A stretch of 52,401 nucleotides of DNA from Escherichia phage vB_EcoM_4HA13, in sequence record NC_049466.2; one strand, written 5' to 3'. A program made the position numbers and the translations under genes. This document shows positions 16,423 through 51,802 of the stretch, in pieces (within the stretch, counting starts at the first letter, position 1; the number at the start of each line of letters is the position of its first letter). The notes below the pieces were generated by a model. The model was given only the letters and a program-made list of their open reading frames with translations. It did no database searches and had not been told where the DNA came from.

Positions 16423-17040
16423 ATGGGTTCGGACTTAACAGCAGTTAATGCTGCACGAGTCTCTTATGGTGCGGAGTCTAAAACGCTAACAAAACGCGAC
16501 TCCCACCTTCTGTCGTTTCTGGCAGAACATGAGCACGTAACACCTTTCCGCCACGCAGCAGTAACATTACGCTGCAAAGCGCCAATCTTCTTGGCGCGAC
16601 AATTGGGCAAGCATCAGGTTGGCTTTAGTTGGAACGAGATTTCTCGCCGCTATAAAGATGGTGATGCAATCGAAGTTGAATGCTACGTTCCTGAGTATGT
16701 TATGGCACGTCCTGATAAACTTATGACTCAGTGTGCAAGACATATGCCAGCAGATATTGCCGACGAAATGCGCATGTATATAAACAATGCTGCTAAGTCA
16801 GCAGTTCGCGAATATCAGGCATTAATTGGATTTGGAGTTGCACCAGAGCAAGCTAGAATGGTGTTACCTCAATCAATGATGACTGAATGGATTTGGACTG
16901 GCTCTCTCTATGGTTGGGCATCCATGTACAATCAGCGTTCCACTGAACACGCTCAATATGAAGCTCGCCTGTTTGCAGAAGAAGTTTCAAAAGTCATGTC
17001 AGAACTTTTCCCAATTTGCTGGGCGGAGTTGATTAAATAA
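16423..17040 (+). CDS. thyX: ThyX-like flavin-dependent thymidylate synthase (tentative)
   Basis: N-terminal AARVSYG and an ...S-x-NE-x-S-RRY segment resemble ThyX motifs; the canonical RHR is not intact. Confidence 0.5.
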   Translation: MGSDLTAVNAARVSYGAESKTLTKRDSHLLSFLAEHEHVTPFRHAAVTLRCKAPIFLARQLGKHQVGFSWNEISRRYKDGDAIEVECYVPEYVMARPDKLMTQCARHMPADIADEMRMYINNAAKSAVREYQALIGFGVAPEQARMVLPQSMMTEWIWTGSLYGWASMYNQRSTEHAQYEARLFAEEVSKVMSELFPICWAELIK

Positions 17041-17054
17041 TTTAAGGAATAGAA

Positions 17055-18815
17055 ATGCTAATTAAACAGTGCGTTCTTAAAATGAAGCACGACCATCCCG
17101 ATTGCAAATCCACCAGCGGGAAGTCATTGCAGGTGTGGATTAACGAATCAGAAGATGGAAAGCGTTTCTATTCCGGCTTTTGTTTCGCATGTGGTGTTGC
17201 TGTTCCAAACCCTCTGGGAACTGACGAAACAAAGTTTCCTGAAATTAAAATTAAGACTCCAGAAGAAATTCAGGAAGAACTTAATGAAATTACTGGCTGT
17301 CCAGTATTTGATTTAGAACATCGTTCAATTGAACCGGAATATTGGGGCGCTGCTCGTGTTCGACTGTTATACTCTGAATATGACGGCAAGACTCCATACG
17401 CCCTTGCTCATGGTTTTACAAAAGCTGGCAAACTTGTTCGCTGGAAGATTAAGCTTCTGAACAAGAAAGTTATTTGGTCTGTTGGGGATACTCAGGATAA
17501 CGACCCATATAACTGGGAAGCTGCCAAAGCAATTGGCGGTAGAACATTGTATATCACAGAGGGTGAGGAAGATGCAATTGCACTTCGTCAAATTCTGAAA
17601 ACTGCAAGTGCAGGTGGAGCATATGCTGAGTTAGACTTCCCTATTATCTCATTAACAGATGGGAGTGATTCAGTTCATAAATCTTTGTCTGGCAAAATAG
17701 AGGAAATAAAGCAGCGTTGGGAACAAGTTGTCATTGTATTTGATGACGACGAACCTGGACGTAAGGCAGCAAAAGAAGCTTGCCGTTTAATTCCCGGAGC
17801 AATGATTGCAGCACTGCCAGCAAACGATGCTAACGACTGTCTTCGTCGTGGCATGATTAAGGCAGCACAAGCAGCAGTTGTGTTTCGTGCAGCTCGTCCA
17901 CTTCCTACAGCATTAGTTGATAAAGAACTACTGATGGATGAATTGGATGATGAAGTTGAAGAAGGTGTTGATTATCCGTGGAAGCGATTAACCGAACTCA
18001 TGTATGGCCAACGTCGTGGTGAAGTTATTACACTTGGTGGTTCTGAGGGTGGTGGTAAAACCACAATGGCTCGTCAGAATGCTGAGCATAATATTATTCA
18101 GCATGATTGGAGTGTATTCTCTGCATTTATGGAAGAAACGCCACAAGAAACTTTACGTCGAATGGCTGGATTGCACGACAACCTTCCGTATTGGGAACCA
18201 AACTTTAAATTTGACCCAAGATACGATGAAGAAAAGTTCAAACAAACTTCCCGTCGCATGTTGCAGAACATGGAAATTTGGGACCGTAAACTTGCTGGTG
18301 AAGACCCATATGAAACATGGGAAGGATTGAAGACAATTATTCGTCAGATTGGTCCAGATATTGATATGTTTATTTTGGATAACCTGACTTACTTGTCAGA
18401 AGGTATTTCATCAACTGAGAAGAACGATTTCTTAGGTAAGTTGTATGCGGATATCACCAAACTATCAGACCAATATCAATTCCATTGTCTAGTGTTGTCT
18501 CACTTAAACCCTGTTGCAAAAGGTCAGCGTCCACATGAGGATGGTGGTCGAATCAAGAAGGGTGACTTTACTGGTTCTCGTGCTGCTGCAAAATACTCTC
18601 ATGGTATGTTTGGCTTTGAACGAAACAGTCAGGCAGTTGACCCTAATTGCTCAATCATTCGTTCAATCAAAGCTCGTAAGAGTGGTAAGACCGAAGGTTT
18701 CAAAACGTACTACGATAGTGATTCAGGACGTATTATTCAGCGTAGCTGGGATGATAGCCTGTTCGAAACAAGAGAAATTGTCCAGTTAACCAAGAAGACT
18801 GGACCACATCAATAA
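17055..18815 (+). CDS. DNA primase-helicase (T7 gp4-like)
   Basis: N-terminal Cys cluster, TOPRIM-like TEGEEDAIAL, Walker A GGSEGGGKTT, Walker B-like DMFILDNL. Confidence 0.8.
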   Translation: MLIKQCVLKMKHDHPDCKSTSGKSLQVWINESEDGKRFYSGFCFACGVAVPNPLGTDETKFPEIKIKTPEEIQEELNEITGCPVFDLEHRSIEPEYWGAARVRLLYSEYDGKTPYALAHGFTKAGKLVRWKIKLLNKKVIWSVGDTQDNDPYNWEAAKAIGGRTLYITEGEEDAIALRQILKTASAGGAYAELDFPIISLTDGSDSVHKSLSGKIEEIKQRWEQVVIVFDDDEPGRKAAKEACRLIPGAMIAALPANDANDCLRRGMIKAAQAAVVFRAARPLPTALVDKELLMDELDDEVEEGVDYPWKRLTELMYGQRRGEVITLGGSEGGGKTTMARQNAEHNIIQHDWSVFSAFMEETPQETLRRMAGLHDNLPYWEPNFKFDPRYDEEKFKQTSRRMLQNMEIWDRKLAGEDPYETWEGLKTIIRQIGPDIDMFILDNLTYLSEGISSTEKNDFLGKLYADITKLSDQYQFHCLVLSHLNPVAKGQRPHEDGGRIKKGDFTGSRAAAKYSHGMFGFERNSQAVDPNCSIIRSIKARKSGKTEGFKTYYDSDSGRIIQRSWDDSLFETREIVQLTKKTGPHQ

Positions 18816-18924
18816 CAAAGAACTCCCACTGCATAGAGCTGGCTAACTTAGTAGTCGTCGGTAACTACCAGTGGGATTCTTCCTATTTAACCTGGAGCCT
18901 AAAGTGTTGTATCCGTGGGAAAAT

Positions 18925-20361
18925 ATGCAAGCCAGTGATATTGAAACTACTGGATTGCTGAAACAAATGAAAAAGCAAGCGAGTCCTCGTTTGCACAACT
19001 TTGGTTTCATCGATATGATGACCAAAGAAGAAACCGTTATGGAATGGACGGAACGGAAACGTATTCAAGATTATTTGAATACAGGACCAACACTTATCAT
19101 GCATAACGGCGCAACCTTTGACTTTGAAGCATTAAAGTTCTTAGGTTATGACGTATCTAAATGTACTCTGATTGATACTTTGTATCTAAGTTGGTACTTA
19201 GAACCTCGCAGACCTAAACACGGTTTGGAAAGTTACGGTGAAGAATTTGGTGTGCCTAAACCAGTCATTGAAGATTGGGAAAACCAAACTCAGGAAGAAT
19301 ACAACAATCGTGTACTGGAAGACTGTAAAATTCAGTCTCGCCTGTGGGAACAGCAGTACAGCCAACTGTTGCAAATTTATCGTTCACCACAAGAGGTAAG
19401 ACGTTTCGTAGAATACTTAATGACAAAAGCACGTCAACAAGTTATACAGCAACGCACCAAGTGGAAGTTGAATAAAGAAAAGGCTTACGCATTTAAGGCA
19501 ATGTTGGAACCAATGTTGCTTGAGAAAACTTCTGAACTTGAGAAGTCAATGCCGCGTATTGTTGAATATGCGCTCAAAAGCCAGCCAGCAAAAATGTACA
19601 AAATGGACAGAACTTTGTCTGCCGCTGGTATTAAATGGAAAGCTATTTGTGATGCAAATGGTTTAGATTTCCGTGACCCTGATGTTCAAATTAAGTACAT
19701 CAAAGGTTATAAAGAGCCGAATGCAAACTCTCACGTACAGCTTAAAGAGTGGCTGTTCAGTTTGGGTTGGGTTCCTCAAACATTTAAGTTTGACCGTAAT
19801 AAGGAAACTGGCGAAACTCGTCAGATTCCACAAATAACAATTAAGGATGAAGATGGTAATCCTGAGATTTGTCAAAGTCTTCATGACTTGGCTGAATCGA
19901 ATCCCGGAAAAGGTATTGAACATCTTATTGGCTTGGGCGTTTATAAACATCGTCTTAGTGTTGTCAACGGGTTTCTGCGCGATGTTGATGATGAAGGTTT
20001 CCTTACTGCACGTTGTGGTGGCCTTACTAACACTTTACGTCTCAAGCATCGTGAACTCGTTAACCTGCCTTCTATTCGTGTGTTTGGTGGTGCGGAACTC
20101 CGAGGAATGCTTGAAGCGCATTCAGAAGAATACGAACAACTAGGTTCGGATTTGTGTTCTCTGGAAGACCGTTGTAAGCACCATTATCAGTGGGCGTATG
20201 ACCCTGAATATGTTAAGAAGCAGTTAGCTGATGACTATGATGCACACTTAGCAATCGGTGTTATCGGTGGATTCATTACTGAGAAAGAATCTCAGGACCA
20301 CAAAGACGGGATTGCAAAATGTAAGCAACGTCCAATGTTCAAAACAACAAACTATGCGTAA
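18925..20361 (+). CDS. DNA polymerase, family A (T7 gp5-like), N-terminal part ending inside motif B
   Basis: Starts MQASDIETTGLL (compare T7 MIVSDIEANALL, Exo I); Exo II HNGATFDFEAL; ends ...KTTNYA at a stop inside motif B. Confidence 0.8.
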   Translation: MQASDIETTGLLKQMKKQASPRLHNFGFIDMMTKEETVMEWTERKRIQDYLNTGPTLIMHNGATFDFEALKFLGYDVSKCTLIDTLYLSWYLEPRRPKHGLESYGEEFGVPKPVIEDWENQTQEEYNNRVLEDCKIQSRLWEQQYSQLLQIYRSPQEVRRFVEYLMTKARQQVIQQRTKWKLNKEKAYAFKAMLEPMLLEKTSELEKSMPRIVEYALKSQPAKMYKMDRTLSAAGIKWKAICDANGLDFRDPDVQIKYIKGYKEPNANSHVQLKEWLFSLGWVPQTFKFDRNKETGETRQIPQITIKDEDGNPEICQSLHDLAESNPGKGIEHLIGLGVYKHRLSVVNGFLRDVDDEGFLTARCGGLTNTLRLKHRELVNLPSIRVFGGAELRGMLEAHSEEYEQLGSDLCSLEDRCKHHYQWAYDPEYVKKQLADDYDAHLAIGVIGGFITEKESQDHKDGIAKCKQRPMFKTTNYA

Positions 20362-21014
20362 ATTGATGCGCATATAAAATCCCTTTAATTCGGTGGAACT
20401 CTCTACCGCAGAGACAATACCGAGCGAAGCATGAAAAGAAATTACTCACCAAAGAAATGTCCTTGTGGAAATGTATTTATTCCGACAGGGCCAAGAAGTT
20501 CCAAGTGCAAACCGTGCTCTAAGATTGTTGAACAGGAATCGAGAGATAGGTCGTACATAAAACATTGCCTCAATACAGGTATTAACTGTGGTGCTGGCAC
20601 AGGAAACTTCGAACACGCAAAAGGTTCAGAAAGCAAGTGCTACTCTTCTGGCAAAGGAAATTATGTCCGTGCTAGAAAGGAAATGCTTGAAGACCTCAAG
20701 TGTTGTGAAAGGTGTGGAAAGAATCTAATAAACGTTCACTATACAAAGCGTGTGATTCATCATCGGGACCATGACAGAAGCAATAACGTAAGAAGTAACT
20801 TTGAGTTACTTTGCAAACGTTGTCACCAACTTCATCACGATTGTCACGATGCTTTCATGAACGTGTAACGACTAGCCGTAAGGCGTACATCCAAGTGGAT
20901 GGAAACGGGGGACCCGACGTTTGTCGGTGATGATATAGTCTGCTCTGCATGGTGACATGCAGCTGGATGAAATTCCGGCATAAGATTAACGAACTTATGT
21001 GAACAATGTAAATG
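20360..21014 (+). mobile_element. Probable group I intron carrying an HNH endonuclease ORF, inserted in DNA polymerase motif B
   Basis: Flanking ORFs split motif B (KTTNYA / QYGAG); GACTA at 20870-20874 can pair with TAGTC at 20936-20940 (P7-like); hairpins with GNRA loops (GCC-GTAA-GGC, TGCATG-GTGA-CATGCA). Exact splice sites are inferred. Confidence 0.55.
20431..20868 (+). CDS. HNH homing endonuclease (intron-encoded)
   Basis: Cys-rich zinc-finger segments plus HHRDHDRSNN...LLCKRCHQLHH. Confidence 0.7.
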   Translation: MKRNYSPKKCPCGNVFIPTGPRSSKCKPCSKIVEQESRDRSYIKHCLNTGINCGAGTGNFEHAKGSESKCYSSGKGNYVRARKEMLEDLKCCERCGKNLINVHYTKRVIHHRDHDRSNNVRSNFELLCKRCHQLHHDCHDAFMNV

Positions 21015-21493
21015 GTCAATATGGTGCTGGTGTTGCAACTGTAACTCGTTCTGCTAAATGCGATTTGGCAACTGGTGCACGACTGCATAAAGCATATTGG
21101 GACTTGAACTGGTCCATCAAAGAGATTGCAGCTAATACAGTTGTTAAGACAGTTGATGGTCAGATGTGGCAGCAGAATCCAGTAAATAAATTCTGGTATT
21201 CACTCCGCACTGAGAAAGACCGATTCTCTACTCTGTGTCAGGGCACTGGCGCATATGTGTTTGATATCTGGTGTAACAATATTATCGCAATCTGCAACGA
21301 ACGTTATGGATGCGACCCACTCCTTTCTGGTCAGTTCCACGATGAATTGATTTTGCAAGTGAAGAAAGGGTATCGTGAATTGTGGACGGCACTGTTGCAT
21401 GAAGCGATGGAACGTACCAACAAACAACTTAAACTCAACCGTGATTGTGCATGTGATGTTCAATTCGGTGATAATTATTCAGAGATTCACTAA
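20999..21493 (+). CDS. DNA polymerase, family A, C-terminal part (motif B second half and motif C)
   Basis: Begins ...NGQYGAGV and contains FHDELILQV. GTG start with no obvious RBS, consistent with being an exon that in a spliced model would begin near 21015. Confidence 0.75.
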   Translation: MNNVNGQYGAGVATVTRSAKCDLATGARLHKAYWDLNWSIKEIAANTVVKTVDGQMWQQNPVNKFWYSLRTEKDRFSTLCQGTGAYVFDIWCNNIIAICNERYGCDPLLSGQFHDELILQVKKGYRELWTALLHEAMERTNKQLKLNRDCACDVQFGDNYSEIH

Positions 21494-23346: not shown

Positions 23347-24375
23347 ATGGCAAGTAAGAAAAGAAAACTTCTGCTTATTGATGGTGACATGATTGCTTTT
23401 AGTCACTGCGCTGCAGAAGAATATGGAAAGGAGTCTGAGGATATCAGTTTCTCCAAAATACAAATGTCAATGGACTCCAAAATGAAGTTCTTGACAGAAC
23501 GACTTGGCGCAACTGATATAATCACATTTATTTCCGGTGATGAAAACATGCGCCACGTAATCTTCCCTGAATACAAGTCAAACCGTGATGGTGTTTGGCG
23601 TCCAGAGAACTTGAGAAATGCGAAAGCTCACCTTCTTGTTGCATGGAATGGTATGAAGGTTGAAGGTTTGGAAGCAGATGACTTACTTGCATGTTTCGCC
23701 CGTCATAAATACGAAATCGAAATGGGCAAACGTAATGTTGTCAAATCTTTAATTGATATTGGACCATGTGATTACGATGAAGTCATCATTGCCTCTCTGG
23801 ATAAAGACCTTCGTCAACTCAGCCAATTCGGGACAAACGGTCCGGTCATTAAGCACTACCAATGGGAACGTGAGTCTCAGGGTATTGGTGAGAAAATTGT
23901 AATTCCAAAAGATTACGGTGAACTCAAATGCATTATCAAAGATACTGGCAAAACGAAGAAGAAAGAAGTTAAGGGCGATGGTCCTAAATTCTTCCTGCAT
24001 CAACTCTTAATTGGTGACAGCACTGATGGAGTTTTGGGGTGCGGTATTCGTGAACTTAAGGTTTATAAATCTGGTGCCAAATGTGGTCAAGAGTATTATA
24101 AACGTGATGGTGTCGGTGCTGTTGAATCATTCGAACTTCTTGACAAAACAACTTCATATCCCGAAGGTTTGAAGAAAGTTATCGGCGCATACATTATACG
24201 ATTCGGTGACGCTTGGGAAGAAGAACTTCTCAAGAATGGACGACTTGTTTACATGCACCATCAAATTGATGAAGGTCGTTACGTTCGACTGTGGCATTAC
24301 AAAGGTGGAATCATTGACCGATTCGACCTGAAAGAGAAACGTGTTATTCCTCATGCAGAGTATCTCCAAAAGTAA
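23347..24375 (+). CDS. 5'-3' exonuclease, FEN family (T7 gp6-like)
   Basis: LLLIDGDMIAF, YKSNRDG, IASLDKDLRQL and IGDSTDGVLGCG align with T7 gp6 segments as recalled. Confidence 0.75.
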   Translation: MASKKRKLLLIDGDMIAFSHCAAEEYGKESEDISFSKIQMSMDSKMKFLTERLGATDIITFISGDENMRHVIFPEYKSNRDGVWRPENLRNAKAHLLVAWNGMKVEGLEADDLLACFARHKYEIEMGKRNVVKSLIDIGPCDYDEVIIASLDKDLRQLSQFGTNGPVIKHYQWERESQGIGEKIVIPKDYGELKCIIKDTGKTKKKEVKGDGPKFFLHQLLIGDSTDGVLGCGIRELKVYKSGAKCGQEYYKRDGVGAVESFELLDKTTSYPEGLKKVIGAYIIRFGDAWEEELLKNGRLVYMHHQIDEGRYVRLWHYKGGIIDRFDLKEKRVIPHAEYLQK

Positions 24376-24386: not shown

Positions 24387-24905
24387 ATGTACGGATATTG
24401 CGGAACGGAAGCCAAGTTTACAGCATGGCTTCAATCGGCATTGAGGGCTGTTTGGACTAAACATCCAAGCAAGCTCTCGTTAGTACAGAGCAGACGTGTT
24501 GCATTGAAAGTGGGACCAAAGGCCAAGCCAATCTTCCATATTCAATGCTTCCATTGCAAGAAATTGTATAAGTTGAAAGAGATTGAAGTTAACCACAAGA
24601 CGCAAGTTGGTGGTCTACTCAAGCTCGAAGACCGTTACAGATTTCTTGACAACCTGCTACTGGTTCAGCCGGAAGATTTGGAATTACTTTGTCATGAATG
24701 TCATGGTATTGTCACGTACATGGAACGTTATGGCGTATCCAGACGTGAAGCAATTATCGAGAAGAAGTGCATTGCCTTCTCGAAATTAACAGATGCTCAG
24801 CAGATTGCCAAGTGCAAAGAAGCAAAGTTTGCTGAGATTCCCAAAACCAAAATCGGACGCAAGAATATGGTTCGAGAATATTTAAGAAAGGTTCTACCAC
24901 AGTGA
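24387..24905 (+). CDS. HNH-family endonuclease-like protein
   Basis: CFHCKK...EVNHK...LLCHECH pattern. Confidence 0.45.
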   Translation: MYGYCGTEAKFTAWLQSALRAVWTKHPSKLSLVQSRRVALKVGPKAKPIFHIQCFHCKKLYKLKEIEVNHKTQVGGLLKLEDRYRFLDNLLLVQPEDLELLCHECHGIVTYMERYGVSRREAIIEKKCIAFSKLTDAQQIAKCKEAKFAEIPKTKIGRKNMVREYLRKVLPQ

Positions 24906-38514: not shown

Positions 38515-38690
38515 GTTCCCTGTTCCCGGATATAAGATACTTCCTGCATCGTCCATTAATCGAGGACAGTTCTCTTTGTCGTTTATGTGAACTTCAAGAT
38601 GGAACTTACTCGGTTATGGACCTTTTAACATTCCATGATATCCTCGACCTTCGTGAGAAACTCAAACCAGTAGAAGAAGATAATGGCTAA
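38412..38690 (+). CDS. -1 frameshift extension of tail chaperone (GT product)
   Basis: -1 frame is open from 38376 to TAA at 38688-38690; slippery TTTTTTC at 38412-38418; stop overlaps the tape-measure ATG. Confidence 0.5.
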   Translation, partial: FFQARARNQRTETVGGGRSIQAGRAEEFESGDDLSSLFPDIRYFLHRPLIEDSSLCRLCELQDGTYSVMDLLTFHDILDLREKLKPVEEDNG

Positions 38691-43510: not shown

Positions 43511-44388
43511 TGTCAATGTTTGATACAGACTTGTTGGGTGAAGGACTTAATAAGTTAAACAAGTTCCATTACGGACACCATCCATCTGTTGTTATGTGGT
43601 CCAATGGTCCAGCACCAGAAAAGAAGGAACAAGGTTTCTTTGGTGGAACTGCACAAGCTCTTGAGTCTCTTGTAACGTCAGAAATTCCAGAAAGTTTTAG
43701 CTCTTTTAAATTTGATGCTATGGTTAGTGAGGAGCATGAAGCTCAATCTATCGTAACCAAATTTCCTGTAAGTTCTGGCTTCTTAGTCAGCGACCATGTA
43801 ATTAATCAAAACCGTGTATTGAAGTTAACTGCTGTGGCAACAAACATGCAGAACTCCTCAATCTGGTCTGCATCTGTTCAGGGCTTGTCTGTAGCAACTG
43901 GTGCAATTTTCAATAGCCCAATCATACCAATCATTGGTGGCATTGCTGGCGGTATTGCATCTGCGTTTGAAACAAGTGACCGAGTGCAATCTACCTACAA
44001 TCTGTTTAACAGTTTCAGGGTTACTGGAAAGAGACTTTATATTTCCACAATACTGGGACCATACTTAAACTGTGTTGTAACTTCTATTAAAACTAAGCAT
44101 GATAAAATGACTTCTGCCATTTTGTCTGTGGAAATCTTATTGGAAGAATTGCAAGTAATTGGGCAGAATGCTCTGGCCGATGAAGCACGTAAGGCAATGG
44201 AATCAATGTATGATTATTCTGAGTTTGCAAAAATGGCTCAGAGTATTGGAATTGGTGTTCTCGGTGGTGCTACACTTCCGGGACTTGGTGCTCTTGGAGA
44301 TTCTCCAACTAAGCAGCTCTCAACACTGAAAGGTAAGTTGGCTGACTTGGCTTCACCAATTTCTTCTGTCAAAGGACGTTTGGTATGA
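43510..44388 (+). CDS. Baseplate protein (putative)
   Basis: ATGA-coupled gene in the baseplate block. Confidence 0.45.
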   Translation: MSMFDTDLLGEGLNKLNKFHYGHHPSVVMWSNGPAPEKKEQGFFGGTAQALESLVTSEIPESFSSFKFDAMVSEEHEAQSIVTKFPVSSGFLVSDHVINQNRVLKLTAVATNMQNSSIWSASVQGLSVATGAIFNSPIIPIIGGIAGGIASAFETSDRVQSTYNLFNSFRVTGKRLYISTILGPYLNCVVTSIKTKHDKMTSAILSVEILLEELQVIGQNALADEARKAMESMYDYSEFAKMAQSIGIGVLGGATLPGLGALGDSPTKQLSTLKGKLADLASPISSVKGRLV

Positions 44389-44747
44389 TTCAAGAAGAAC
44401 AACAAGCGTTAAAAGAAATATGCAATCTGTTGCCTACAGGTTATGTAAAAAGCATCCCTTACGATATTTCAAGGGATGTTTCGTTTGAGTTCAATGGCGT
44501 GACTGTAAAAATGTCTGCATTGTATTTAAATGAATACTTAAACTGCTACATGTTTGATTTAGCTTGGGGTGCCACAGACAAGATTTATGGTATCCCGATT
44601 AAAGGTGGAATAGATATTCTTAAACAATATTCCACACCACTACCAAACATGTATGCAGCTAACACTGTATTCTCGGAACAAGATGTTTCGAGTTGGCGGC
44701 AACTTTATTTATTCACTATAGATGCGAGTGTACTAGAACGTGGCTAG
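44385..44747 (+). CDS. Baseplate assembly protein (hypothetical)
   Basis: ATGA overlap with upstream gene. Confidence 0.45.
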   Translation: MIQEEQQALKEICNLLPTGYVKSIPYDISRDVSFEFNGVTVKMSALYLNEYLNCYMFDLAWGATDKIYGIPIKGGIDILKQYSTPLPNMYAANTVFSEQDVSSWRQLYLFTIDASVLERG

Positions 44748-45534
44748 CCATAACAACAATCAAGAAGCTCCAGATATAAACACTAGTTATCCGGGGCATA
44801 TTTATAATTTTGATGCAGAGTCCCAAACTTGTGAAGTAAAGCTGGCTATTGAGCATTTGTTTGTTGGCTATAAAGAGGCTTACACACTTGAGCCTAATCA
44901 ACGTTTGGAAGGAGTTCCAGTTCAATTCATACAGGGTGGTGGTTGGAGTTTAACACATCCTGTACCAGACGGAACTCCTTGTTACGTCCACTTCTCACAA
45001 CGTGGTATCGACCATTGGATTGCTGAGAATAAAGAAGAAGCAGGGATGCTTAATGGTAGGCCCGCCCCAGCATTTAGCCAGCTGTTTTCACATAACGCTG
45101 CTGTATGCACAATTGGGACTCAACCAATACCTAAAGCGATTGGTGGATTTGCTGGTGATGTATTTGAACTTCGCAATGCAGACAGAAGTCAGAGGCATAC
45201 ATTCCATGGTGATGGTACTGTTGAGATAATTACAGGCGAAGCCAAAATTGTCATCCAAAAGGATTCGGAGATTTCAATTGAAGTTACATCGAAGGCAACA
45301 ATTAAAGCGCCGCAAATCCTTTTGGATGGTGACACGACTGTTACCAAATCCTTAACAGTGATGGGCGGTATGGCAGTGTCTGGTGGCTCTGGTGAATCAA
45401 TGTCTGTTACTGGTAATATTAAATATACTGGTGATATGGTTCAGAATGGTACATTCACATTGAATGGTATTGCTGTCAATACTCACAAACACTCTAACCC
45501 AGAAGGCGGCGATGTTGGGCCGATGAAAGCATAA
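44740..45534 (+). CDS. Baseplate central spike protein (gpV-like, putative)
   Basis: C-terminal NTHKHSNPEGG (HxH tip-like); GTG start. Confidence 0.5.
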   Translation: MASHNNNQEAPDINTSYPGHIYNFDAESQTCEVKLAIEHLFVGYKEAYTLEPNQRLEGVPVQFIQGGGWSLTHPVPDGTPCYVHFSQRGIDHWIAENKEEAGMLNGRPAPAFSQLFSHNAAVCTIGTQPIPKAIGGFAGDVFELRNADRSQRHTFHGDGTVEIITGEAKIVIQKDSEISIEVTSKATIKAPQILLDGDTTVTKSLTVMGGMAVSGGSGESMSVTGNIKYTGDMVQNGTFTLNGIAVNTHKHSNPEGGDVGPMKA

Positions 45535-45905
45535 TGGCTGGAAACTTAGCACTTGATTCCAACCACGACATTATAATTGGGCGTGGCGCTACTCGAATAG
45601 AGGGTGCAGCCCAAGTTGCGCAGTTGGTTAAATGCCGACTGCTAACATTGCTTGGGGAGTGGAAGTTAGATACTTCTCTTGGCTTGCCGTGGTTTGATGC
45701 AATCTTTACAAAGCAAGTTCGTCCTGCCGATATTGAGGCAGCGCTTGCAAATATTATTCGTGGGACTGCCGGAGTTCAGCAGTTGATATCAATTGATATT
45801 AGCCCAGACTTCCGTGAAAGAACCCTCAGTATTTCATTCATTGCCATATCTGATTATGGTGACATTTCGGAATATTTGACATGGCAACAATCCAGTACGG
45901 CGTAA
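45534..45905 (+). CDS. Baseplate wedge small protein (Mu gp46-like, putative)
   Basis: About 120 aa, follows the spike gene. Confidence 0.45.
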   Translation: MAGNLALDSNHDIIIGRGATRIEGAAQVAQLVKCRLLTLLGEWKLDTSLGLPWFDAIFTKQVRPADIEAALANIIRGTAGVQQLISIDISPDFRERTLSISFIAISDYGDISEYLTWQQSSTA

Positions 45906-47041
45906 CTACAAACGGTTTTGTCCGTAAACCTATCAATGCAATACTTACCAGTTTAAATAACAAGTTTATTGCAGCGTTTGGTACAAACTTTGATGTAAGT
46001 CCCGAATCCCCAGATGGTCAGGTTATCGGTATCATAACTGATGAAGTTGACCAATGCTGGAATCAATCTCAGCAAGTATTCAATGCGTATAGGCCAGGTG
46101 CAATGAGTGGTGTCGGTTTGGACAACATTTGTGAATTAACTGGTGTAGTGCGATACGTAAATACCAAAACCCGAGTTACAGTTTACTGCGATGGTACTAG
46201 TGGAAGTATTGTTCCTGCTGGTTCTGTAGTTGGCGATGGTACGATGACGTTCACTTTGGATACTGATGTTGTACTTCCGGGCGATGTGACTGCTGTTGCA
46301 GATGTTGCTGGTGCATACTATGTTGCTCCGGGAACAATAAACAAAATCATTACCGAAGGTATTTCTGGTTGGACTTCCGTAACAAATGCCGATAGTGGTA
46401 CTACTGGTGTAACCTACGAAACCGACCCAGAGTTCAGGGCACGTCGTGACAAAACAACGGCAATCTTGAGTTCAGCAACAGTCGAATCAATCTATGCTGC
46501 ATTGTCTGACCTCAATCTTACTTACATTCGTATTCGTGATAATGATTCCGGCGCTGCTATTGGTGCTCAGCCAGCAGGTACTGTCTTTGTTGTAGTTGAT
46601 GGTGGTTCTAAGAATGATATTGCCAGACGCATTTATAGTGTTAAAACTGGTGGTGTCCCGACTTTCGGAACGGAGTCAATAACAATAATGGATAGTAAAG
46701 GTTATCCGCATCCGATTAATTTTAGCCGCTCAAGCAATACTGAAATATTTGTAACTGGTACATTCAAACGTCGTGCTAGTGCAAACATAAGTTCGAACGA
46801 TGCTGCCAAAACTTTGCAAGAAGTAATGATTAATTATCTAAACTCCTTGCAGCCGGGCGAAGATGTTATTTGGTCTGAGTTGTTTAAACCACTCATGGAT
46901 GCCACATCTTATATCGAAATCGATTCTTTGTTTATCGGTACTACTGCCAACCCAACTGGTATTGCATCTATCGAACTTGATATCGATAAGCGTGCTCATG
47001 GCATTGAAGCCAATATCAAATTTACTGATGTAACAACGTGA
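45881..47041 (+). CDS. Baseplate J-like protein (putative)
   Basis: 386 aa in the conserved baseplate position. Confidence 0.5.
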   Translation: MATIQYGVTTNGFVRKPINAILTSLNNKFIAAFGTNFDVSPESPDGQVIGIITDEVDQCWNQSQQVFNAYRPGAMSGVGLDNICELTGVVRYVNTKTRVTVYCDGTSGSIVPAGSVVGDGTMTFTLDTDVVLPGDVTAVADVAGAYYVAPGTINKIITEGISGWTSVTNADSGTTGVTYETDPEFRARRDKTTAILSSATVESIYAALSDLNLTYIRIRDNDSGAAIGAQPAGTVFVVVDGGSKNDIARRIYSVKTGGVPTFGTESITIMDSKGYPHPINFSRSSNTEIFVTGTFKRRASANISSNDAAKTLQEVMINYLNSLQPGEDVIWSELFKPLMDATSYIEIDSLFIGTTANPTGIASIELDIDKRAHGIEANIKFTDVTT

Positions 47042-47049
47042 GATAAATA

Positions 47050-47691
47050 ATGGCTGGAAAGCATGGTGTTAACATGCTTCTTTCTCAGTATAAGAATTCT
47101 GAGAATTTAAAGAAGTATGTTTCTATTATTGTTTCTGAGTTTGAAGAAGTTCGTAAAGCTCAAGAAGATTCTATCAAGTATCGCTATCTGGCCGATTCCT
47201 TTGGTGTCATGGTTGACGATATAGCATACTTGGTTGGAGCAAGTCGAGTTATCTATGGTGCTGTTGCACTTGGATATTTTGGCTTCTACAGTAACCCAGG
47301 CGCACACCCTGCTGGTGATGACAACAACCCTAATATTGGTGGTATTCTTAAATCAGATTCTGACAAAGATTCTGGTGACTTTGTTCGTACAGATACTCAG
47401 CTTAAGCAAGCTATACGTGCTCGTATAATCAAAATTATGGGCAACTGTAATGTTGAGCAATTGATTACATACACTGAGTTAGTCCTTGGACGAACTATTG
47501 ACCTCGAAGTAAGAGAGGGACACCAAACAATCGATTACATTGTTCACGGAACTTTGTCAGTTGATGACAAAGTATTGTTGTCATACATGTTGCCAGACTT
47601 CAAGCCAGCTGGTATTGCAATAACTCTTGCAGATAATTCTGGTGACATTGCTTTGGTATATGTTTCCAAAATATATCCACCGGAGAAATAA
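47050..47691 (+). CDS. Baseplate/tail protein (Mu gp48-like, putative)
   Basis: 213 aa before the tail fibre genes. Confidence 0.45.
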   Translation: MAGKHGVNMLLSQYKNSENLKKYVSIIVSEFEEVRKAQEDSIKYRYLADSFGVMVDDIAYLVGASRVIYGAVALGYFGFYSNPGAHPAGDDNNPNIGGILKSDSDKDSGDFVRTDTQLKQAIRARIIKIMGNCNVEQLITYTELVLGRTIDLEVREGHQTIDYIVHGTLSVDDKVLLSYMLPDFKPAGIAITLADNSGDIALVYVSKIYPPEK

Positions 47692-48857
47692 TGACTAAGC
47701 GCTTACAATACCCAACTTATTGGGCATCTGGCGGCACAGCAACTGACCCTGACTTGGACACAACTGCACCAAGTTATGAAGCAAACCGCTACAAACAACA
47801 TGGCTGGCACGCTGAAAAGCCTCCAAATTTTTGGCAAAACTTCTTGTCTCAGATAACTGACGAGAAGATTATTGCTCGCATGGTTGATGGGTTTCAGTTG
47901 TTTGACTCAAGTGTTACTTATTCAGAAGGTGCAGTTTACCGAAAGGGTGACAAGTTTTACAAAATTGAGTCTGGTGTTGAGCAGGAAATTCTGGAAGTTA
48001 AGTTGGCTGTGTACCAGTCCCTTATTGATGGAATGGATAGACTCCTTAGTGACCACCTATCGGCAGACAACCCACACCAAATCACTGTTGATAAATTAGT
48101 TGGTGGTGGATACATCAAGACGGATGTGGATAAGTTCTTTGGCGACCCAAACGACCCACAAACCATTGTGTTCCACAAAGCACAGAAGGGTGCTGGTGTT
48201 CATGGTGAAACTGCTACATCAACTGGTACACTTCCTGCTGCAACTGGCGGGACTTTCACTGGTGATGTTATATTCTTGGATGGTGTGATTATCCAAGTAA
48301 CACCGTCGAAATCTATTCATATGAATAAGGCAACAGCTTTATTTGAAATTGTGAATGGGACATATTCCATTGGTGTTGATGCCAACGGGAATGGGTACAT
48401 TGTAGGTACGTCTGGCACTGCGTTAATTATCTCAGAGTTAAATCTGGATACATTGACGATGAAGTATAACAACTCATATGCCCTTCCTCCCCCATTTATT
48501 AGAGCAAATATGTGCTCAGGTTTGAGTGATGGCAGTGGCATTGGTGTGTGGACTTTGGACACTCCAGCAGACCCAGTATTTGCTGACGGATTGCAAGTTG
48601 ACAATAACGCCGCAGTTCTCACGTTTGAGAGTATCGCCGGAATTCCGGTAACAGTTCATTTGTTAGTAACATTGGCAGATGGAACAAAGCAGTCTATTGT
48701 AAAAGACTTTGCTGACTGGAACTCACACCCACAAACTGGGAGCTTACAGACAGTTGTCGGCAAAGCGTTTGGTGGAACTGACCCTAAATACTTCCGTGAA
48801 TATACGGTGTATCCAACTCTGACAGCTCGACAGAAAACAATGTTGGTGAATAAATAA
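47691..48857 (+). CDS. Tail fibre protein (paralog 1)
   Basis: Shares an HG-x-TAT-x-TG...TGGT-x-GDVIF block with the next gene. Confidence 0.55.
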   Translation: MTKRLQYPTYWASGGTATDPDLDTTAPSYEANRYKQHGWHAEKPPNFWQNFLSQITDEKIIARMVDGFQLFDSSVTYSEGAVYRKGDKFYKIESGVEQEILEVKLAVYQSLIDGMDRLLSDHLSADNPHQITVDKLVGGGYIKTDVDKFFGDPNDPQTIVFHKAQKGAGVHGETATSTGTLPAATGGTFTGDVIFLDGVIIQVTPSKSIHMNKATALFEIVNGTYSIGVDANGNGYIVGTSGTALIISELNLDTLTMKYNNSYALPPPFIRANMCSGLSDGSGIGVWTLDTPADPVFADGLQVDNNAAVLTFESIAGIPVTVHLLVTLADGTKQSIVKDFADWNSHPQTGSLQTVVGKAFGGTDPKYFREYTVYPTLTARQKTMLVNK

Positions 48858-50233
48858 TGCTAAGACCAAAGCTCAACCGTATTTGGACTTCTACAAATGC
48901 GAACTTGCGTCGTGACCCAGGCGATGCCAAATACATTCAAGGTTGGATTTCAGAGATTCCAACTTACCAAGTATTGAACTATCTGCAATACAAGGTGGAT
49001 ACCACACTGTTGGCTTTGGCTGAACGTGGTATCTTTGAATGGGGCAGCGATGTAACATATGGCCTTGCTTCTGTTGTTTGGGATGAAACCGATAAACGAA
49101 TTTACGTTTCGACTGTTGGTGCTCCAGATAAAACAAAAGCTCCGTCAGCAAACTCTGCACATTGGACTCCAAGTTCAATCCAAGTTTCTCGTGCTTCGTA
49201 TGACTCCATTGTAGCAGCAATTAATGCGCACATTGCAGACGTGACAGGCAACCCACATAAGCTAACTGCTGGTCGGTTGAATGCATACAACAAGAACGAG
49301 ACAGATGCAATTGTTGCACAATATCGTGCACTTGTTCTTGCCCACAGTTCTGATAAGAATAATCCGCATGGTGTTACTGCAACTCAAACTGGTGCTGTCC
49401 CTTCCACTGGTGGTACATATTCTGGTGACGTAATCTTCAATGCTGGAGTCTTCTTTGATTCTGGCAAGGTCAACAAGATTAATAAGTCTGGTGGACTGTT
49501 CTTGCAGAATGGTGCAGGACAAATTGGTATCAACGATTCTGGCGTAGGGATGGTTGGTCCAACTAACTCTATGTCCAAGATTGTTACTGAGGCTTCATAT
49601 CCGGGGCTTAAGTCTGCACAAGAACCAGATTATGCAGTGCCGATGCCAAACTTCCAGATGAACTGTGTTCGTGATATTAGTATCCAAACAGGTAGTGGGT
49701 ATGTGGATTCTAACTTCAATCCAATATTCTCTGCTGCCAATGGTTCTTTGGAAATTACCAATACCACGCAGGCAGTTAAATACTCAATTACAGGTTCTGA
49801 GACACTTGGCTCTAGCCAAGAGTGGACTATCAGTTTTGATATTCTTGAAGTAACTCCAAGGATTCCGACAGATGATAATGTAACGATATTAATTGGGATG
49901 GTTAACACCTTCATATATCTTACTGGTTCGAGCTTAATTAGAGCTTGGCGTAGTAATGGTTCTATAAGTGACCTAGTTCAATACCGGTTAACTGGACCAA
50001 TCAATACTTGGTATAAGGTTTCTGCAACATTCAAAGGTAATAACATTACCTTGTTCGTTAATGGTGTTCAAGTGGCACAAGTTACCAATGCGTCTGAAAC
50101 TTCTACTGTGGGTGGTGGACCATTTAGGTTCGACAGCTACACTAAGAGTGCCGATAGTATTCGTACTCTTGATGTTCGCAACATCCGTTTGTGGTCCCAG
50201 ACCCTCACCAACAAACAAGTATCAAATCTGTAA
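48857..50233 (+). CDS. Tail fibre protein with C-terminal LamG/ConA-like lectin domain (paralog 2)
   Basis: N-terminal similarity to upstream fibre; C-terminal ...ITLFVNGVQVA... pattern. Confidence 0.55.
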   Translation: MLRPKLNRIWTSTNANLRRDPGDAKYIQGWISEIPTYQVLNYLQYKVDTTLLALAERGIFEWGSDVTYGLASVVWDETDKRIYVSTVGAPDKTKAPSANSAHWTPSSIQVSRASYDSIVAAINAHIADVTGNPHKLTAGRLNAYNKNETDAIVAQYRALVLAHSSDKNNPHGVTATQTGAVPSTGGTYSGDVIFNAGVFFDSGKVNKINKSGGLFLQNGAGQIGINDSGVGMVGPTNSMSKIVTEASYPGLKSAQEPDYAVPMPNFQMNCVRDISIQTGSGYVDSNFNPIFSAANGSLEITNTTQAVKYSITGSETLGSSQEWTISFDILEVTPRIPTDDNVTILIGMVNTFIYLTGSSLIRAWRSNGSISDLVQYRLTGPINTWYKVSATFKGNNITLFVNGVQVAQVTNASETSTVGGGPFRFDSYTKSADSIRTLDVRNIRLWSQTLTNKQVSNL

Positions 50234-50242
50234 GGAATAACA

Positions 50243-50881
50243 ATGGCTCGTGGATATTCACTTGGTGGACTAATTAATGATTTGTATAAGTTAGTCTACC
50301 CTGTTGGAATTTGCATCGATTTCGATAATGCAACAAATCCAAACACAACTTTCCCAGGAACTACTTGGGTACAGATAACTGATAACAGGGTTGTGCGAAC
50401 TTCAACAAGCGCTACAGTTGGAACCAGTCCGGGGCAGATTGGTGCTATAGCTGGTAATGACACCATAACCTTAGTTGAAGCCAACCTACCTAAGCACGTC
50501 CATTGGATTGACCATTCACACGGAATATATTTTAACTCCGGTGGTGGTGGTGTTCACCAACATACAGTATCAGGAACTACCTCCGATAATGGGTGGCATG
50601 CACACGGCATTGCAATGAAGGGGCAGAACTATGGTGGCTCCAACGGTATTACCGCTTCCAACTCTGCCGCAGCGAAAGGATACATGGATACAAATGGTGC
50701 AGGTACACACAACCACTGGTGGAGTGGTGATAGTTCGTGGAGTGGTGACCACGTACATCTAATTTCAGGCAATACTGGTGGTGCATCTATGGCAAACTCT
50801 GGTGACGGCAATGGTTCAAGTGCTTCAATCAATGCTGCCAACTCCTGTCACTACTATGCAAGATGGAAACGCACTGCATAA
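50243..50881 (+). CDS. Gly/His-rich tail fibre or collar-domain protein
   Basis: Gly-rich repeats with repeated His pairs. Confidence 0.45.
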   Translation: MARGYSLGGLINDLYKLVYPVGICIDFDNATNPNTTFPGTTWVQITDNRVVRTSTSATVGTSPGQIGAIAGNDTITLVEANLPKHVHWIDHSHGIYFNSGGGGVHQHTVSGTTSDNGWHAHGIAMKGQNYGGSNGITASNSAAAKGYMDTNGAGTHNHWWSGDSSWSGDHVHLISGNTGGASMANSGDGNGSSASINAANSCHYYARWKRTA

Positions 50882-50893
50882 CATGGAAACAAA

Positions 50894-51235
50894 ATGGAAA
50901 GAATTTCGTTCCAAATGCTGTGGGATTTAATGCACCAATATGGAGTTCTTCATGGACTCCTTGCTGGAGTTACTGCACTAATTCGTGGTGCATATGAAAG
51001 TGAAGGGCTTGCGAAAGCTCTTCTTGATGCCATGCTTTGTTGCGTTATTGGTGTATTTGCTTTTCAAGTTGCTGGAACGTTTGATACTTTCCAAAGCAAT
51101 ATTACTATGCAGTTGATTCTTGCAATGGTGATTGGGGTTGTCGGAGCTAATCTGATTATAACTTCTGTTCGCGATTGCTTTACATCTGCATTGAAACAGC
51201 TTAATCCGCTTACATGGTTTAAGAAGGCCAAATGA
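50894..51235 (+). CDS. Holin-like membrane protein
   Basis: Three hydrophobic segments and a basic C-terminus; directly upstream of a cell-wall hydrolase gene. Confidence 0.45.
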   Translation: MERISFQMLWDLMHQYGVLHGLLAGVTALIRGAYESEGLAKALLDAMLCCVIGVFAFQVAGTFDTFQSNITMQLILAMVIGVVGANLIITSVRDCFTSALKQLNPLTWFKKAK

Positions 51236-51247
51236 ATAAAGGTGCCC

Positions 51248-51802
51248 ATGATTTCAATCAAAGCACTTGTAATCCTGTTGGCATCTTTCAGTACTCAAGT
51301 CCCAGCTTCGGTTGGGACTCTGAACGATTCGCTTACAGATTTTGCAAGTCATTCCTATTTAAATGGAAGTCTCAAACTATCTTCTTCACAACGGAAAGAG
51401 CTAGATTGTTTAACTAAAGTTATCTGGTTTGAAGCTCGTGGTGAGAGCAAACACGGAAAGATTCTTGTAGCTAATGTCGTTCAAAATCGAATGAACTTCG
51501 GAAAGCCATTCGCTACAACCGTTTGTGGTGTTGTCTATCAACGCAGCCAATTCTCTTGGACACTTGAGTCTAAGAAGAAGCATGCTCGCTTCAAAGATGT
51601 TGCTAAGAAGCATTGGAAAACCGAGCAGAAGCAAATAGAAGATACGATTAGTGTTGCAATGAATGTAATATTGTTCGACGCAAAACCAATCACAGAGGCT
51701 ACTCACTTCTGTACCGCTACGGAACGTTGCAGTTTCAAAAATGTAACTAAACTTGGTCGGTATGGAAATCATAAACTGTACAAGTATAAGGGCAATTCAT
51801 GA
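51248..51802 (+). CDS. SleB-type cell wall hydrolase with N-terminal signal sequence
   Basis: WFEARGE...ANVVQNR...VCGVVYQRSQFS pattern; hydrophobic N-terminus; ATG at 51248 with AAAGG RBS. Confidence 0.55.
   Translation: MISIKALVILLASFSTQVPASVGTLNDSLTDFASHSYLNGSLKLSSSQRKELDCLTKVIWFEARGESKHGKILVANVVQNRMNFGKPFATTVCGVVYQRSQFSWTLESKKKHARFKDVAKKHWKTEQKQIEDTISVAMNVILFDAKPITEATHFCTATERCSFKNVTKLGRYGNHKLYKYKGNS

What the first reader, a model, noticed from the sequence alone, without database searches (positions are those of the whole stretch)
16423..51802. Mosaic genome: T7-like replication genes joined to a Mu-like contractile-tail module
The gp4-like primase-helicase, gp5-like polymerase, gp6-like exonuclease, ligase and single-subunit RNAP are typical of T7-type podoviruses. 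The structural block has terminase before portal, sheath, tube, G/GT chaperone, tape measure and a Mu/P2-style baseplate. I cannot place this combination in a known genus from memory.
Basis: inference. Interest (0 to 1): 0.5.

Follow-up and report, generated by a model that had tools for sequence, protein, structure and literature searches.

The report
Known chasevirus genome: phage vB_EcoM-4HA13
The window is the complete, already published genome of Escherichia phage vB_EcoM-4HA13, and its mix of T7-type transcription and replication genes with a contractile tail is the known hallmark of the phage family Chaseviridae, so the finding is real but ordinary.

Summary
The RNA polymerase lies outside the given coordinates, at 399-2363.

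The combination is not new. Four proteins (large terminase, capsid, sheath, primase-helicase) are residue-for-residue identical to those of Escherichia phage vB_EcoM_4HA13. Each sits on a 52,401-bp contig, which is the window length. G+C is 42.8%, there are no tRNAs and all genes are on one strand, as published.

4HA13 is the exemplar of genus Sabourvirus, family Chaseviridae. ICTV describes that family as myoviruses with an Autographiviridae-like single-subunit RNA polymerase. The first member, phiEcoM-GJ1, was described in 2008.

"T7-like" holds at family level: all five proteins share their best PHROG with the T7 counterpart. "Mu-like" does not hold. tblastn against the Mu late region gave no hit, and only the baseplate-J protein shares a family with Mu. 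The tail is of the DUF3383-sheath class (Pam3, XM1, phi92, Felix O1-like phages), and the head is T1-like.

Seen in passing:
- a probable group I intron with an HNH gene splits the DNA polymerase gene;
- a conserved promoter-like 20-bp motif;
- a lambda-exonuclease-like domain inside the tape measure protein.

The parts
399..2363 (+). Single-subunit RNA polymerase (654 aa, T7 family). It lies outside the finding's coordinates.
   Evidence: Pfam RNA_pol PF00940, 50.3 bits against a cut-off of 22. phrog_414 at 5e-88, the same best PHROG as T7 gp1. Motifs DAKCSGTQ, KTPYMAVQYGG and IHDC are present. 77% aa identity to the Mangalitsa RNAP.
16423..17040 (+). ThyX thymidylate synthase
   Evidence: Pfam Thy1, 6e-40.
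17055..18815 (+). T7 gp4-type primase-helicase
   Evidence: PDB hits to T7 gp4 (5ikn, 6n7i, 1q57), E 7e-31 to 7e-29. tblastn to T7 gene 4: 25.5% over 416 aa, 4e-29. phrog_239 is shared with T7 gp4.
18871..20359 (+). DNA polymerase (family A), exon 1
   Evidence: 83% aa identity to the uninterrupted Mangalitsa polymerase; ends at ...KTTNYA. phrog_17 at 8e-64, shared with T7 gp5.
20360..21014 (+). Probable group I intron (655 nt) in polymerase motif B, carrying an HNH endonuclease ORF at 20431-20868
   Evidence: Rfam RF00028 full-length match 20350-20962, 26.3 bits, E 1.6e-4, below the gathering score of 50. A P1 helix with U.G at the 5' splice site, and a G at 21014. Joining 20359 to 21015 gives a 655-aa ORF reading TNYACQYGAG, as in Mangalitsa. 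The blastn alignment to Mangalitsa breaks at 20357/21015. The same insert occurs in phage BSBP01, with non-coding parts better conserved than the ORF and one compensatory pair. HNH Pfam hits are weak.
21015..21493 (+). DNA polymerase, exon 2
   Evidence: Pfam DNA_pol_A, C-terminal part, 32.4 bits. 90% aa identity to Mangalitsa.
23347..24375 (+). 5'-3' exonuclease (FEN / T7 gp6 family)
   Evidence: Pfam 5_3_exonuc_N, 6.7e-11. phrog_107 at 2e-57, the same PHROG as T7 gp6.
24902..25663 (+). Small ATP-dependent DNA ligase (253 aa)
   Evidence: phrog_114 at 9e-37, shared with T7 gp1.3. Pfam DNA_ligase_OB_2, 28.4 bits against a cut-off of 28. KIDG motif at residue 36.
25644..26770 (+). dNMP kinase and dUTPase
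   Evidence: phrog_139 at 8e-42 and phrog_135 at 5e-55.
27934..29958 (+). Terminase large subunit (T1-like lineage)
   Evidence: phrog_38 at 5e-99. Identical to QEM43024.1 of 4HA13. 86.6% aa identity to Faunus and 85% to ST32; about 30% to T1-like phages outside the family.
30170..34381 (+). Portal, head maturation protease, a structural protein and the major capsid protein
   Evidence: Pfam Phage_portal_3 7e-76, DUF2213 4e-24, Major_capside 1e-41. PHROGs 146, 530, 563 and 264. Capsid protein is 27.5% identical to the T1 capsid, E 2e-25.
34388..36128 (+). Head-tail connector and tail completion/terminator genes
   Evidence: PHROGs 14310, 302, 11887 and 12771. Pfam Phage_tail_terminator_9.
36128..38043 (+). 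Contractile tail sheath (DUF3383 class) and tail tube
   Evidence: Pfam DUF3383 2.4e-57, and KPP10_Orf10 weak. phrog_205 and phrog_280. PDB sheath hits: Pam3 8hdr, XM1 7kh1, phi92 gp130. tblastn outside the family gives 21-27% to Felix O1-like, Pakpunavirus-like and Jedunavirus-like phages.
38056..38690 (+). Tail assembly chaperone with a G/GT-type -1 frameshift: slippery T_TTT_TTC at 38412-38418, and a -1 ORF open to 38690
   Evidence: Pfam Phage_TAC_15, 1e-12. The -1 frame was read. The heptamer and the 91-aa -1 extension are conserved in Mangalitsa; the whole GT product is 80% identical.
38683..42297 (+). Tape measure protein (1204 aa) with an embedded lambda-exonuclease/YqaJ-like domain (aa about 440-630) and a C-terminal SLT lytic transglycosylase domain
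   Evidence: Pfam YqaJ 7e-10 and SLT 2e-7. phrog_19855, 1686 bits; phrog_434 RecE-like 4e-20. PDB 3syy exonuclease at 8e-7, with the SPDG...EhK motif aligned.
42371..47691 (+). Simple baseplate: hub, Dit-like tube initiator, plug, central spike, gp25-like wedge, baseplate-J-like wedge, DUF2612 protein
   Evidence: Pfam: E217_GP41 (weak), Dit_like 7.5e-20, Pam3_gp18 (weak), PF18352 spike N-terminal domain 3e-17, Baseplate_J 1.6e-10, DUF2612. PHROGs 196, 17031, 16481, 120, 6 and 587.
47691..50881 (+). Three tail fibre genes
   Evidence: phrog_8147 (twice) and phrog_5717/4277. Only 37-45% aa identity to Mangalitsa.
50894..51802 (+). Holin and endolysin
   Evidence: phrog_126 and phrog_938.

Best explanation
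The window is the whole genome of the lytic myovirus Escherichia phage vB_EcoM-4HA13 (genus Sabourvirus, subfamily Cleopatravirinae, family Chaseviridae).

Its layout is the standard chasevirus layout, and every gene is on one strand:
- a T7-family single-subunit RNA polymerase at the left end;
- a block of small early genes;
- a T7-style replication and nucleotide-metabolism block (ThyX, gp4-type primase-helicase, family A polymerase, FEN-type exonuclease, small ATP ligase, dNMP kinase, dUTPase);
- a T1-type packaging and head module;
- a contractile tail of the DUF3383-sheath class with a simple baseplate;
- fibres and lysis genes.

Mechanistically (inferred from the T7 paradigm and the ICTV description), host RNA polymerase would start transcription and the phage polymerase would take over. 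Phage enzymes replicate the linear, terminally redundant DNA. A T1-like terminase fills a T1-like capsid, to which a sheath/tube tail is attached.

The 'mosaic' is therefore an old, stably inherited family architecture shared by dozens of isolates. It is not a recent join and not a new kind of phage.
For: - Identity: large terminase, capsid, sheath and primase-helicase are exact matches to 4HA13 proteins QEM43024.1, QEM43033.1, QEM43038.1 and QEM43009.1, each on a 52,401-bp contig.
- Published properties: the window is 52,401 bp, 42.82% G+C, has no tRNA and has all long ORFs on the + strand. The paper reports 52,401 bp, 42.8%, no tRNA and all CDS on the sense strand (PMC9699118).
- Virion: the same paper shows myovirus electron micrographs and virion mass spectrometry of sheath, tube and tape measure.
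- Family description: the ICTV profile describes the family as myoviruses of 52-56 kb with an Autographiviridae-like RNA polymerase, a phage DNA polymerase and a helicase/primase. It names 4HA13 as exemplar.
- Collinearity: 38 of 41 window proteins have collinear tblastn matches in Mangalitsa, at 37-91% aa identity. Nucleotide similarity is about 52% over 71% coverage, matching the published 50-53%.
- T7 link: the window and T7 proteins share their best PHROGs 414, 239, 17, 107 and 114.
- Head link to T1.
Against: - The GenBank record itself could not be aligned, because MN136198 is absent from the 'phages' collection. Identity rests on four exact proteins, the contig length and the published statistics, not on a base-by-base comparison.
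- The temporal transcription scheme is inferred by analogy. The ICTV profile says the phage promoters have not been identified.
- The direct terminal repeat (3,120 bp in the paper) is present only once in the window, so it cannot be seen here.
Confidence: 0.97

Rival explanations
1. A novel, unclassified mosaic phage formed by a recent join of a T7-like podovirus replication module and a Mu-like myovirus tail module.
For: The replication and transcription proteins fall in the same PHROGs as T7 gp1, gp4, gp5, gp6 and gp1.3. The tail gene order (sheath, tube, chaperone, tape measure, hub, spike, gp25-like, J-like, fibres) parallels Mu genes L to S.
Against: - Exact protein identity to a published, ICTV-classified phage.
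- The same architecture is found in Carltongylesvirus, Faunusvirus, Suwonvirus and others, so the join is ancient.
- No composition break occurs between the modules; G+C is 0.39-0.48 throughout and GC skew is uniformly positive from 2 kb on.
- No tblastn hit to the Mu late region, and only one shared PHROG, phrog_6.
- Similarity to T7 itself is remote: gp4 25% identity, RNAP E 0.017, nothing for polymerase, exonuclease or ligase by BLAST.
Confidence: 0.02
2. A chimeric assembly artefact joining contigs of a podovirus and a myovirus.
For: None beyond the superficially mixed gene content.
Against: Many independently isolated and sequenced phages from several host genera have the same order across the putative junction. 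Metagenomic contigs of 51-64 kb carry the same protein clusters. The virion proteome and electron microscopy of a plaque-purified isolate are published.
Confidence: 0.01

Closest known systems
Escherichia phage vB_EcoM-4HA13 (MN136198), Sabourvirus sv4HA13, Chaseviridae
   Same: Four proteins tested are identical.
   Different: Nothing detected. The publication does not mention an intron, homing endonuclease, promoter or frameshift.
Carltongylesvirus (phiEcoM-GJ1, ST32, Mangalitsa) and Faunusvirus (Erwinia phage Faunus), Chaseviridae: Cleopatravirinae
   Same: Gene order is the same from RNA polymerase to lysis genes. Core proteins are 63-91% identical. Large terminase is 85-87% identical. The promoter-like motif and the chaperone frameshift site are conserved.
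   Different: Only about 52% intergenomic nucleotide similarity, below the 70% genus threshold cited in the 4HA13 paper. The polymerase is uninterrupted in Mangalitsa and Faunus. Fibres are 37-45% identical. GJ1 and ST32 carry a tRNA-Arg; the window has none.
Escherichia phage T7 (Autographiviridae)
   Same: Single-subunit RNA polymerase, gp4-type primase-helicase, family A polymerase, FEN-type exonuclease and ATP ligase fall in the same PHROG families. Transcription is unidirectional, with the RNA polymerase gene near the left end.
   Different: - Very distant sequences.
- The RNA polymerase is 654 aa against 883 aa.
- No T7-type head, tail or core proteins.
- Contractile tail.
- 52 kb against 40 kb.
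- About 3 kb terminal repeat in the paper; T7's is 160 bp (from my own knowledge).
Escherichia phage Mu / P2-type contractile tails
   Same: The tail and baseplate genes are in an analogous order, and both use a simple baseplate with a J-like wedge protein (phrog_6 and Pfam Baseplate_J are shared).
   Different: Sheath, tube, chaperone, hub, gp25-like wedge, I-like protein and large terminase all fall in different PHROGs from Mu's. There is no BLAST similarity. The phage is strictly lytic per the paper, which also found no integrase gene; the window's early ORFs were not scanned here for a transposase.
DUF3383-sheath myoviruses with solved tails (cyanophage Pam3, Vibrio phage XM1, phi92) and Felix O1-like, Pakpunavirus and Jedunavirus phages
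   Same: Sheath family DUF3383, tube KPP10_Orf10, and weak matches to the Pam3 gp18 plug and the E217 gp41 hub.
   Different: Only 21-31% sheath identity. Those phages lack the T7-type RNA polymerase and replication block.
Group I introns with HNH endonuclease genes in phage DNA polymerase genes (T7-like phages; Bacillus SPO1 group; recalled from my own knowledge, not checked here)
   Same: The insert sits in conserved polymerase motif B, has an HNH ORF inside the ribozyme and U/G splice-site signatures.
   Different: The Rfam score is below gathering. Splicing is untested. It is not annotated as an intron in BSBP01 and is not mentioned in the 4HA13 paper.

Membership tests
Chaseviridae (ICTV profile) | Myovirus virion, i.e. 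contractile tail genes | tested here: met
   Sheath, tube, chaperone, tape measure and baseplate genes are present. Electron micrographs of 4HA13 show a contractile-tailed virion (PMC9699118).
Chaseviridae (ICTV profile) | dsDNA genome of 52-56 kb with G+C 39.3-52.5% | tested here: met
   52,401 bp and 42.82% G+C.
Chaseviridae (ICTV profile) | Large single-subunit RNA polymerase related to Autographiviridae | tested here: met
   Pfam RNA_pol above its cut-off. phrog_414 is shared with T7 gp1. Catalytic motifs are present.
Chaseviridae (ICTV profile) | Phage-encoded DNA polymerase and helicase/primase | tested here: met
Chaseviridae (ICTV profile) | Long direct terminal repeats of about 3 kb | not testable with these tools
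   The window holds the repeat once. The paper reports 3,120 bp, and Mangalitsa has 3,234 bp annotated.
Chaseviridae (ICTV profile) | Groups with family members on core genes (RNA polymerase, large terminase) | tested here: met
   Large terminase is 86.6% identical to Faunus, 85% to ST32, 65% to Myduc and 59% to Aeromonas PVN02, against about 30% outside the family. RNA polymerase is 77% identical to Mangalitsa. No tree was built here.
Genus Sabourvirus / species sv4HA13 | More than 95% nucleotide identity to the exemplar over the genome | tested here: inconclusive
   The record is not in the searchable collection.
Genus Sabourvirus / species sv4HA13 | Less than 70% nucleotide similarity to other genera | tested here: met
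   About 52% to Mangalitsa. The best megablast hits are about 75% identical over 50-68% of the query.
Autographiviridae (T7-like podoviruses) | Short non-contractile tail and T7-type head, core and tail proteins | tested here: not met
   tblastn of the window's structural proteins against T7 gives no hit. Sheath and tube genes are present.
Mu-like phages | Tail and baseplate proteins homologous to Mu L, M, gp41 and gp43-48, and large terminase homologous to gp28 | tested here: not met
   No tblastn hit at E below 0.05. Only phrog_6 (J-like) is shared out of ten proteins compared.
Mu-like phages | Transposase-based replication (MuA/MuB) | not tested
   The early small ORFs were not scanned for transposases. 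The replication block is T7-type, and the paper reports no integrase.
Group I intron (Rfam RF00028) | Covariance-model match at the gathering score | tested here: inconclusive
   Not found at gathering. A full-length match of 26.3 bits, E 1.6e-4, appears in a local search. The 438-nt ORF insertion is expected to lower the score.
Group I intron (Rfam RF00028) | 5' exon ends in U paired to G in P1; intron ends in G; exon ligation restores the reading frame | tested here: met
   TATGCGT (20353-20359) pairs with GCGCATA (20368-20374), and there is a G at 21014. The spliced ORF is 655 aa and reads TNYACQYGAG, as in Mangalitsa.
Group I intron (Rfam RF00028) | Self-splicing | not testable with these tools
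   Needs RT-PCR or in vitro splicing.

The most novel reading that the evidence does not exclude
The finding itself has no novel reading left. The most novel thing the evidence allows concerns a motif seen in passing.

The + strand motif cTTca-ACATTAGTTGGAA-nTGA lies in front of gene blocks throughout the genome. It is conserved at syntenic intergenic sites in three chasevirus genera. It could be the promoter of the chasevirus single-subunit RNA polymerase, which the 2022 ICTV profile says had not been identified.
Probability: 0.4. Interest if true: 0.4.

Novelty: already known. Interest (0 to 1): 0.08.

Why it matters
As a discovery it matters little. A myovirus with a T7-like RNA polymerase was reported in 2008 (phiEcoM-GJ1), was made a family in 2021, and this very genome was published in 2022. 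The useful outcomes are a correct label for the window and a correction of 'Mu-like': the tail is of the DUF3383-sheath class and the head is T1-like. Three annotation-level leads in a reference genome may also interest phage biologists: an unannotated group I intron in the polymerase gene, a candidate phage promoter, and a nuclease domain inside the tape measure protein.

Tried and rejected
- MN136198 could not be fetched from the phage collection, so no base-by-base check was possible.
- The phiEcoM-GJ1 genome paper (PMC2223254) is not held. What it says about promoters could not be checked.
- phmmer against PDB found nothing for the RNA polymerase or the N-terminal part of the polymerase. 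These proteins are too diverged from T7 for single-sequence search, so PHROG profiles were used instead.
- Rfam at gathering thresholds found nothing in the whole window. The intron appeared only in a local E-value search.
- tblastn of all window proteins against the Mu late region gave no hits, so I rejected 'Mu-like'.
- I considered a recent mosaic join or an assembly chimera. Both were rejected on conserved synteny across genera and uniform composition.
- I considered that the many 90-95% short hits marked a recently transferred gene. They lie in or near the HNH/intron region. Apart from noting BSBP01 they were not resolved.
- A literature search for a YqaJ domain in tape measure proteins gave only coincidental co-occurrences, judged from titles and abstracts.
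Full report
**Observation**

The window has about 80 genes, all on the + strand, and no tRNA.

Transcription, replication and nucleotide metabolism:
- ThyX at 16423-17040.
- A primase-helicase at 17055-18815. It matches solved T7 gp4 structures at E about 1e-30.
- A family A DNA polymerase in two pieces, 18871-20361 and 20999-21493.
- A FEN-type 5'-3' exonuclease at 23347-24375.
- A 253-aa ATP-dependent ligase with a KIDG motif.
- dNMP kinase and dUTPase.

Head, tail and lysis:
- Large terminase, portal, protease and capsid.
- Connector proteins, then a DUF3383-type sheath, tube, assembly chaperone and a 1204-aa tape measure.
- A simple baseplate made of hub, Dit-like protein, plug, spike, gp25-like and J-like proteins.
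- Three fibre genes, holin and endolysin.

The G/GT chaperone call also holds. A T_TTT_TTC heptamer at 38412-38418 leads into a -1 frame that stays open to 38690, overlapping the tape-measure ATG. Both the heptamer and the 91-aa extension are conserved in phage Mangalitsa.

**What it is**

An exact-sequence look-up shows that large terminase, capsid, sheath and primase-helicase are identical to proteins of Escherichia phage vB_EcoM_4HA13. Each is recorded on a contig of 52,401 bp, which is the window length.

The published description of 4HA13 gives 52,401 bp, 42.8% G+C, no tRNA and all CDS on one strand (PMC9699118). The window has 42.82% G+C. The paper also reports a myovirus morphology by electron microscopy, a 3,120-bp direct terminal repeat, and virion mass spectrometry that detects sheath, tube, tape measure and baseplate proteins.

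The ICTV profile names 4HA13 as the exemplar of genus Sabourvirus in the family Chaseviridae. [quoted passage not shown] The 4HA13 record itself is missing from the searchable phage collection. This is why megablast found only about 75% identity over 50-68% of the query. My own blastn gives about 52% intergenomic similarity to Mangalitsa with fully collinear alignments, in line with the published 50-53%. Of 41 window proteins, 38 have collinear matches in Mangalitsa.

**How T7-like and how Mu-like**

At family level the T7 comparison holds. The window's RNA polymerase, primase-helicase, polymerase, exonuclease and ligase have the same best PHROG as T7 gp1, gp4, gp5, gp6 and gp1.3. These are phrog_414, 239, 17, 107 and 114.

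The relationship is remote, though. By tblastn only gp4 (25% identity, 4e-29) and marginally the RNA polymerase (E 0.017) are detectable. The RNA polymerase is 654 aa against 883 aa in T7.

The Mu comparison does not hold:
- No window protein hits the Mu late region by tblastn.
- Of Mu L, M, gp41 and gp43-48 plus the large terminase gp28, only gp47 shares a PHROG with its window counterpart. That is phrog_6, the baseplate-J family.
- The sheath is DUF3383 and matches solved sheaths of cyanophage Pam3, Vibrio phage XM1 and phi92.
- Outside the family its nearest relatives, at 21-31% identity, include Felix O1-like, Pakpunavirus-like and Jedunavirus-like myoviruses.
- The head module is T1-like. 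Large terminase is about 30% identical to T1-like siphoviruses, and the capsid is 27.5% identical to T1's.

What is shared with Mu and P2 is only the generic order and logic of a simple contractile-tail baseplate.

**Verdict on the finding**

Uniform composition across the genome and conserved synteny in several genera with different hosts show an old, stable family architecture, not a recent join or an assembly artefact. Novelty: already known.

**Noticed in passing**

1. *Probable intron in the polymerase gene.*
   - The gene is interrupted exactly in motif B (…KTTNYA | CQYGAG…) by a 655-nt insert, 20360-21014, carrying an HNH ORF.
   - The 5' exon ends in a U. That U pairs with a G in a 7-bp P1 helix formed by TATGCGT and GCGCATA. 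The insert ends in G.
   - Joining 20359 to 21015 recreates the codon TGT and a 655-aa polymerase colinear with Mangalitsa's.
   - Rfam's group I intron model matches full-length in a local search: 26.3 bits, E 1.6e-4, below the gathering score.
   - Phage BSBP01 has the same insert. Its non-coding parts are nearly identical while the ORF has diverged, and one hairpin shows a compensatory change, CATCC/GGATG to CACCC/GGGTG.
   - The 4HA13 paper does not mention an intron.
   - This is a known kind of element, but it appears to be unannotated here.

2. *Promoter-like motif.*
   - ACATTAGTTGGAA occurs 14 times within two mismatches, against 2.3 expected and 0 of 100 shuffles reaching 14. Twelve of the 14 are on the + strand.
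   - It recurs at syntenic intergenic sites in Mangalitsa (13 against 1.8 expected) and in Erwinia phage Faunus (11 against 1.2 expected).
   - A weight matrix gives the consensus cTTcaACATTAGTTGGAAnTGA. It also picks up sites just upstream of the large terminase gene (27894) and the baseplate hub gene (42330).
   - The ICTV profile states that chasevirus promoters had not been identified. A 2021 review asserts similar promoters through the genome but gives no sequence.
   - This is a candidate phage-polymerase promoter and is untested.

3. *Nuclease domain in the tape measure protein.*
   - The protein contains an apparently intact lambda-exonuclease/YqaJ-like PD-(D/E)XK domain. Support is Pfam YqaJ 7e-10, phrog_434 4e-20, and PDB 3syy 8e-7 with SPDG…EhK aligned.
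   - It also has a C-terminal SLT domain.
   - The domain is conserved in the family: phrog_19855 matches, and Mangalitsa aligns over the full length.

4. *Split terminase in relatives.* Some metagenomic members of the large-terminase cluster are 294-334 aa. This hints at split terminase genes in relatives. It was not followed up.

Noticed in passing
window 20360-21014 (HNH ORF 20431-20868); exons 18871-20359 and 21015-21493: The DNA polymerase gene is split in motif B by a probable group I intron carrying an HNH homing endonuclease gene. Supporting points: U/G splice-site signatures, a P1 helix, a sub-threshold full-length Rfam RF00028 match, and an exon join that restores TNYACQYGAG. The same insert occurs in phage BSBP01 with one compensatory change. 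The 4HA13 paper does not mention it, and in BSBP01 the pieces are annotated as separate CDSs.
   Followed up: partly
window + strand: 122, 2384, 2705, 6090, 10321, 10502, 11870, 12304, 12635, 16819, 21700, 27894, 42330. Also L001 (Mangalitsa) and L006 (Faunus).: A conserved motif of about 20 bp, cTTcaACATTAGTTGGAAnTGA, is strongly over-represented. It is almost only on the coding strand, is mostly intergenic just upstream of gene blocks, and is conserved at syntenic sites in three chasevirus genera. It is a candidate promoter of the phage single-subunit RNA polymerase, which ICTV (2022) says had not been identified.
   Followed up: partly
window 38683-42297, domain at about nt 39925-40602 (aa about 415-640): The tape measure protein carries an embedded lambda-exonuclease/YqaJ-like nuclease domain with catalytic motifs apparently intact, plus a C-terminal SLT lytic transglycosylase domain. 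I found no description of a nuclease domain in a tape measure protein in the papers searched. Subtracting the two domains leaves roughly 780 aa, which fits the 116-nm tail at about 0.15 nm per residue (inference).
   Followed up: partly
window 38412-38690; L001 36868-37146: A conserved -1 slippery heptamer T_TTT_TTC and a conserved 91-aa -1 ORF give a G/GT-type chaperone pair. The -1 ORF ends at the tape-measure start. This implies that the Mangalitsa tape measure starts near 37139, not at the annotated 37361.
   Followed up: yes
protein cluster of window 27934-29958: Many metagenomic members of the 90%-identity large-terminase cluster are only 294-334 aa, on contigs of 30-64 kb. This suggests that the terminase gene is split in close relatives, possibly by another intron or homing endonuclease.
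   Followed up: no
window 3318, 3417, 3571: Three copies of ATTGTGACAATA lie within 250 bp, just beyond the published 3,120-bp terminal-repeat boundary. Their function is unknown.
   Followed up: no
window 22758-23306: A 182-aa ORF with a RyR domain (Pfam PF02026, 1.9e-10) sits between the polymerase and exonuclease genes. It has no tblastn counterpart in Mangalitsa, which has an endonuclease gene at that position.
   Followed up: no
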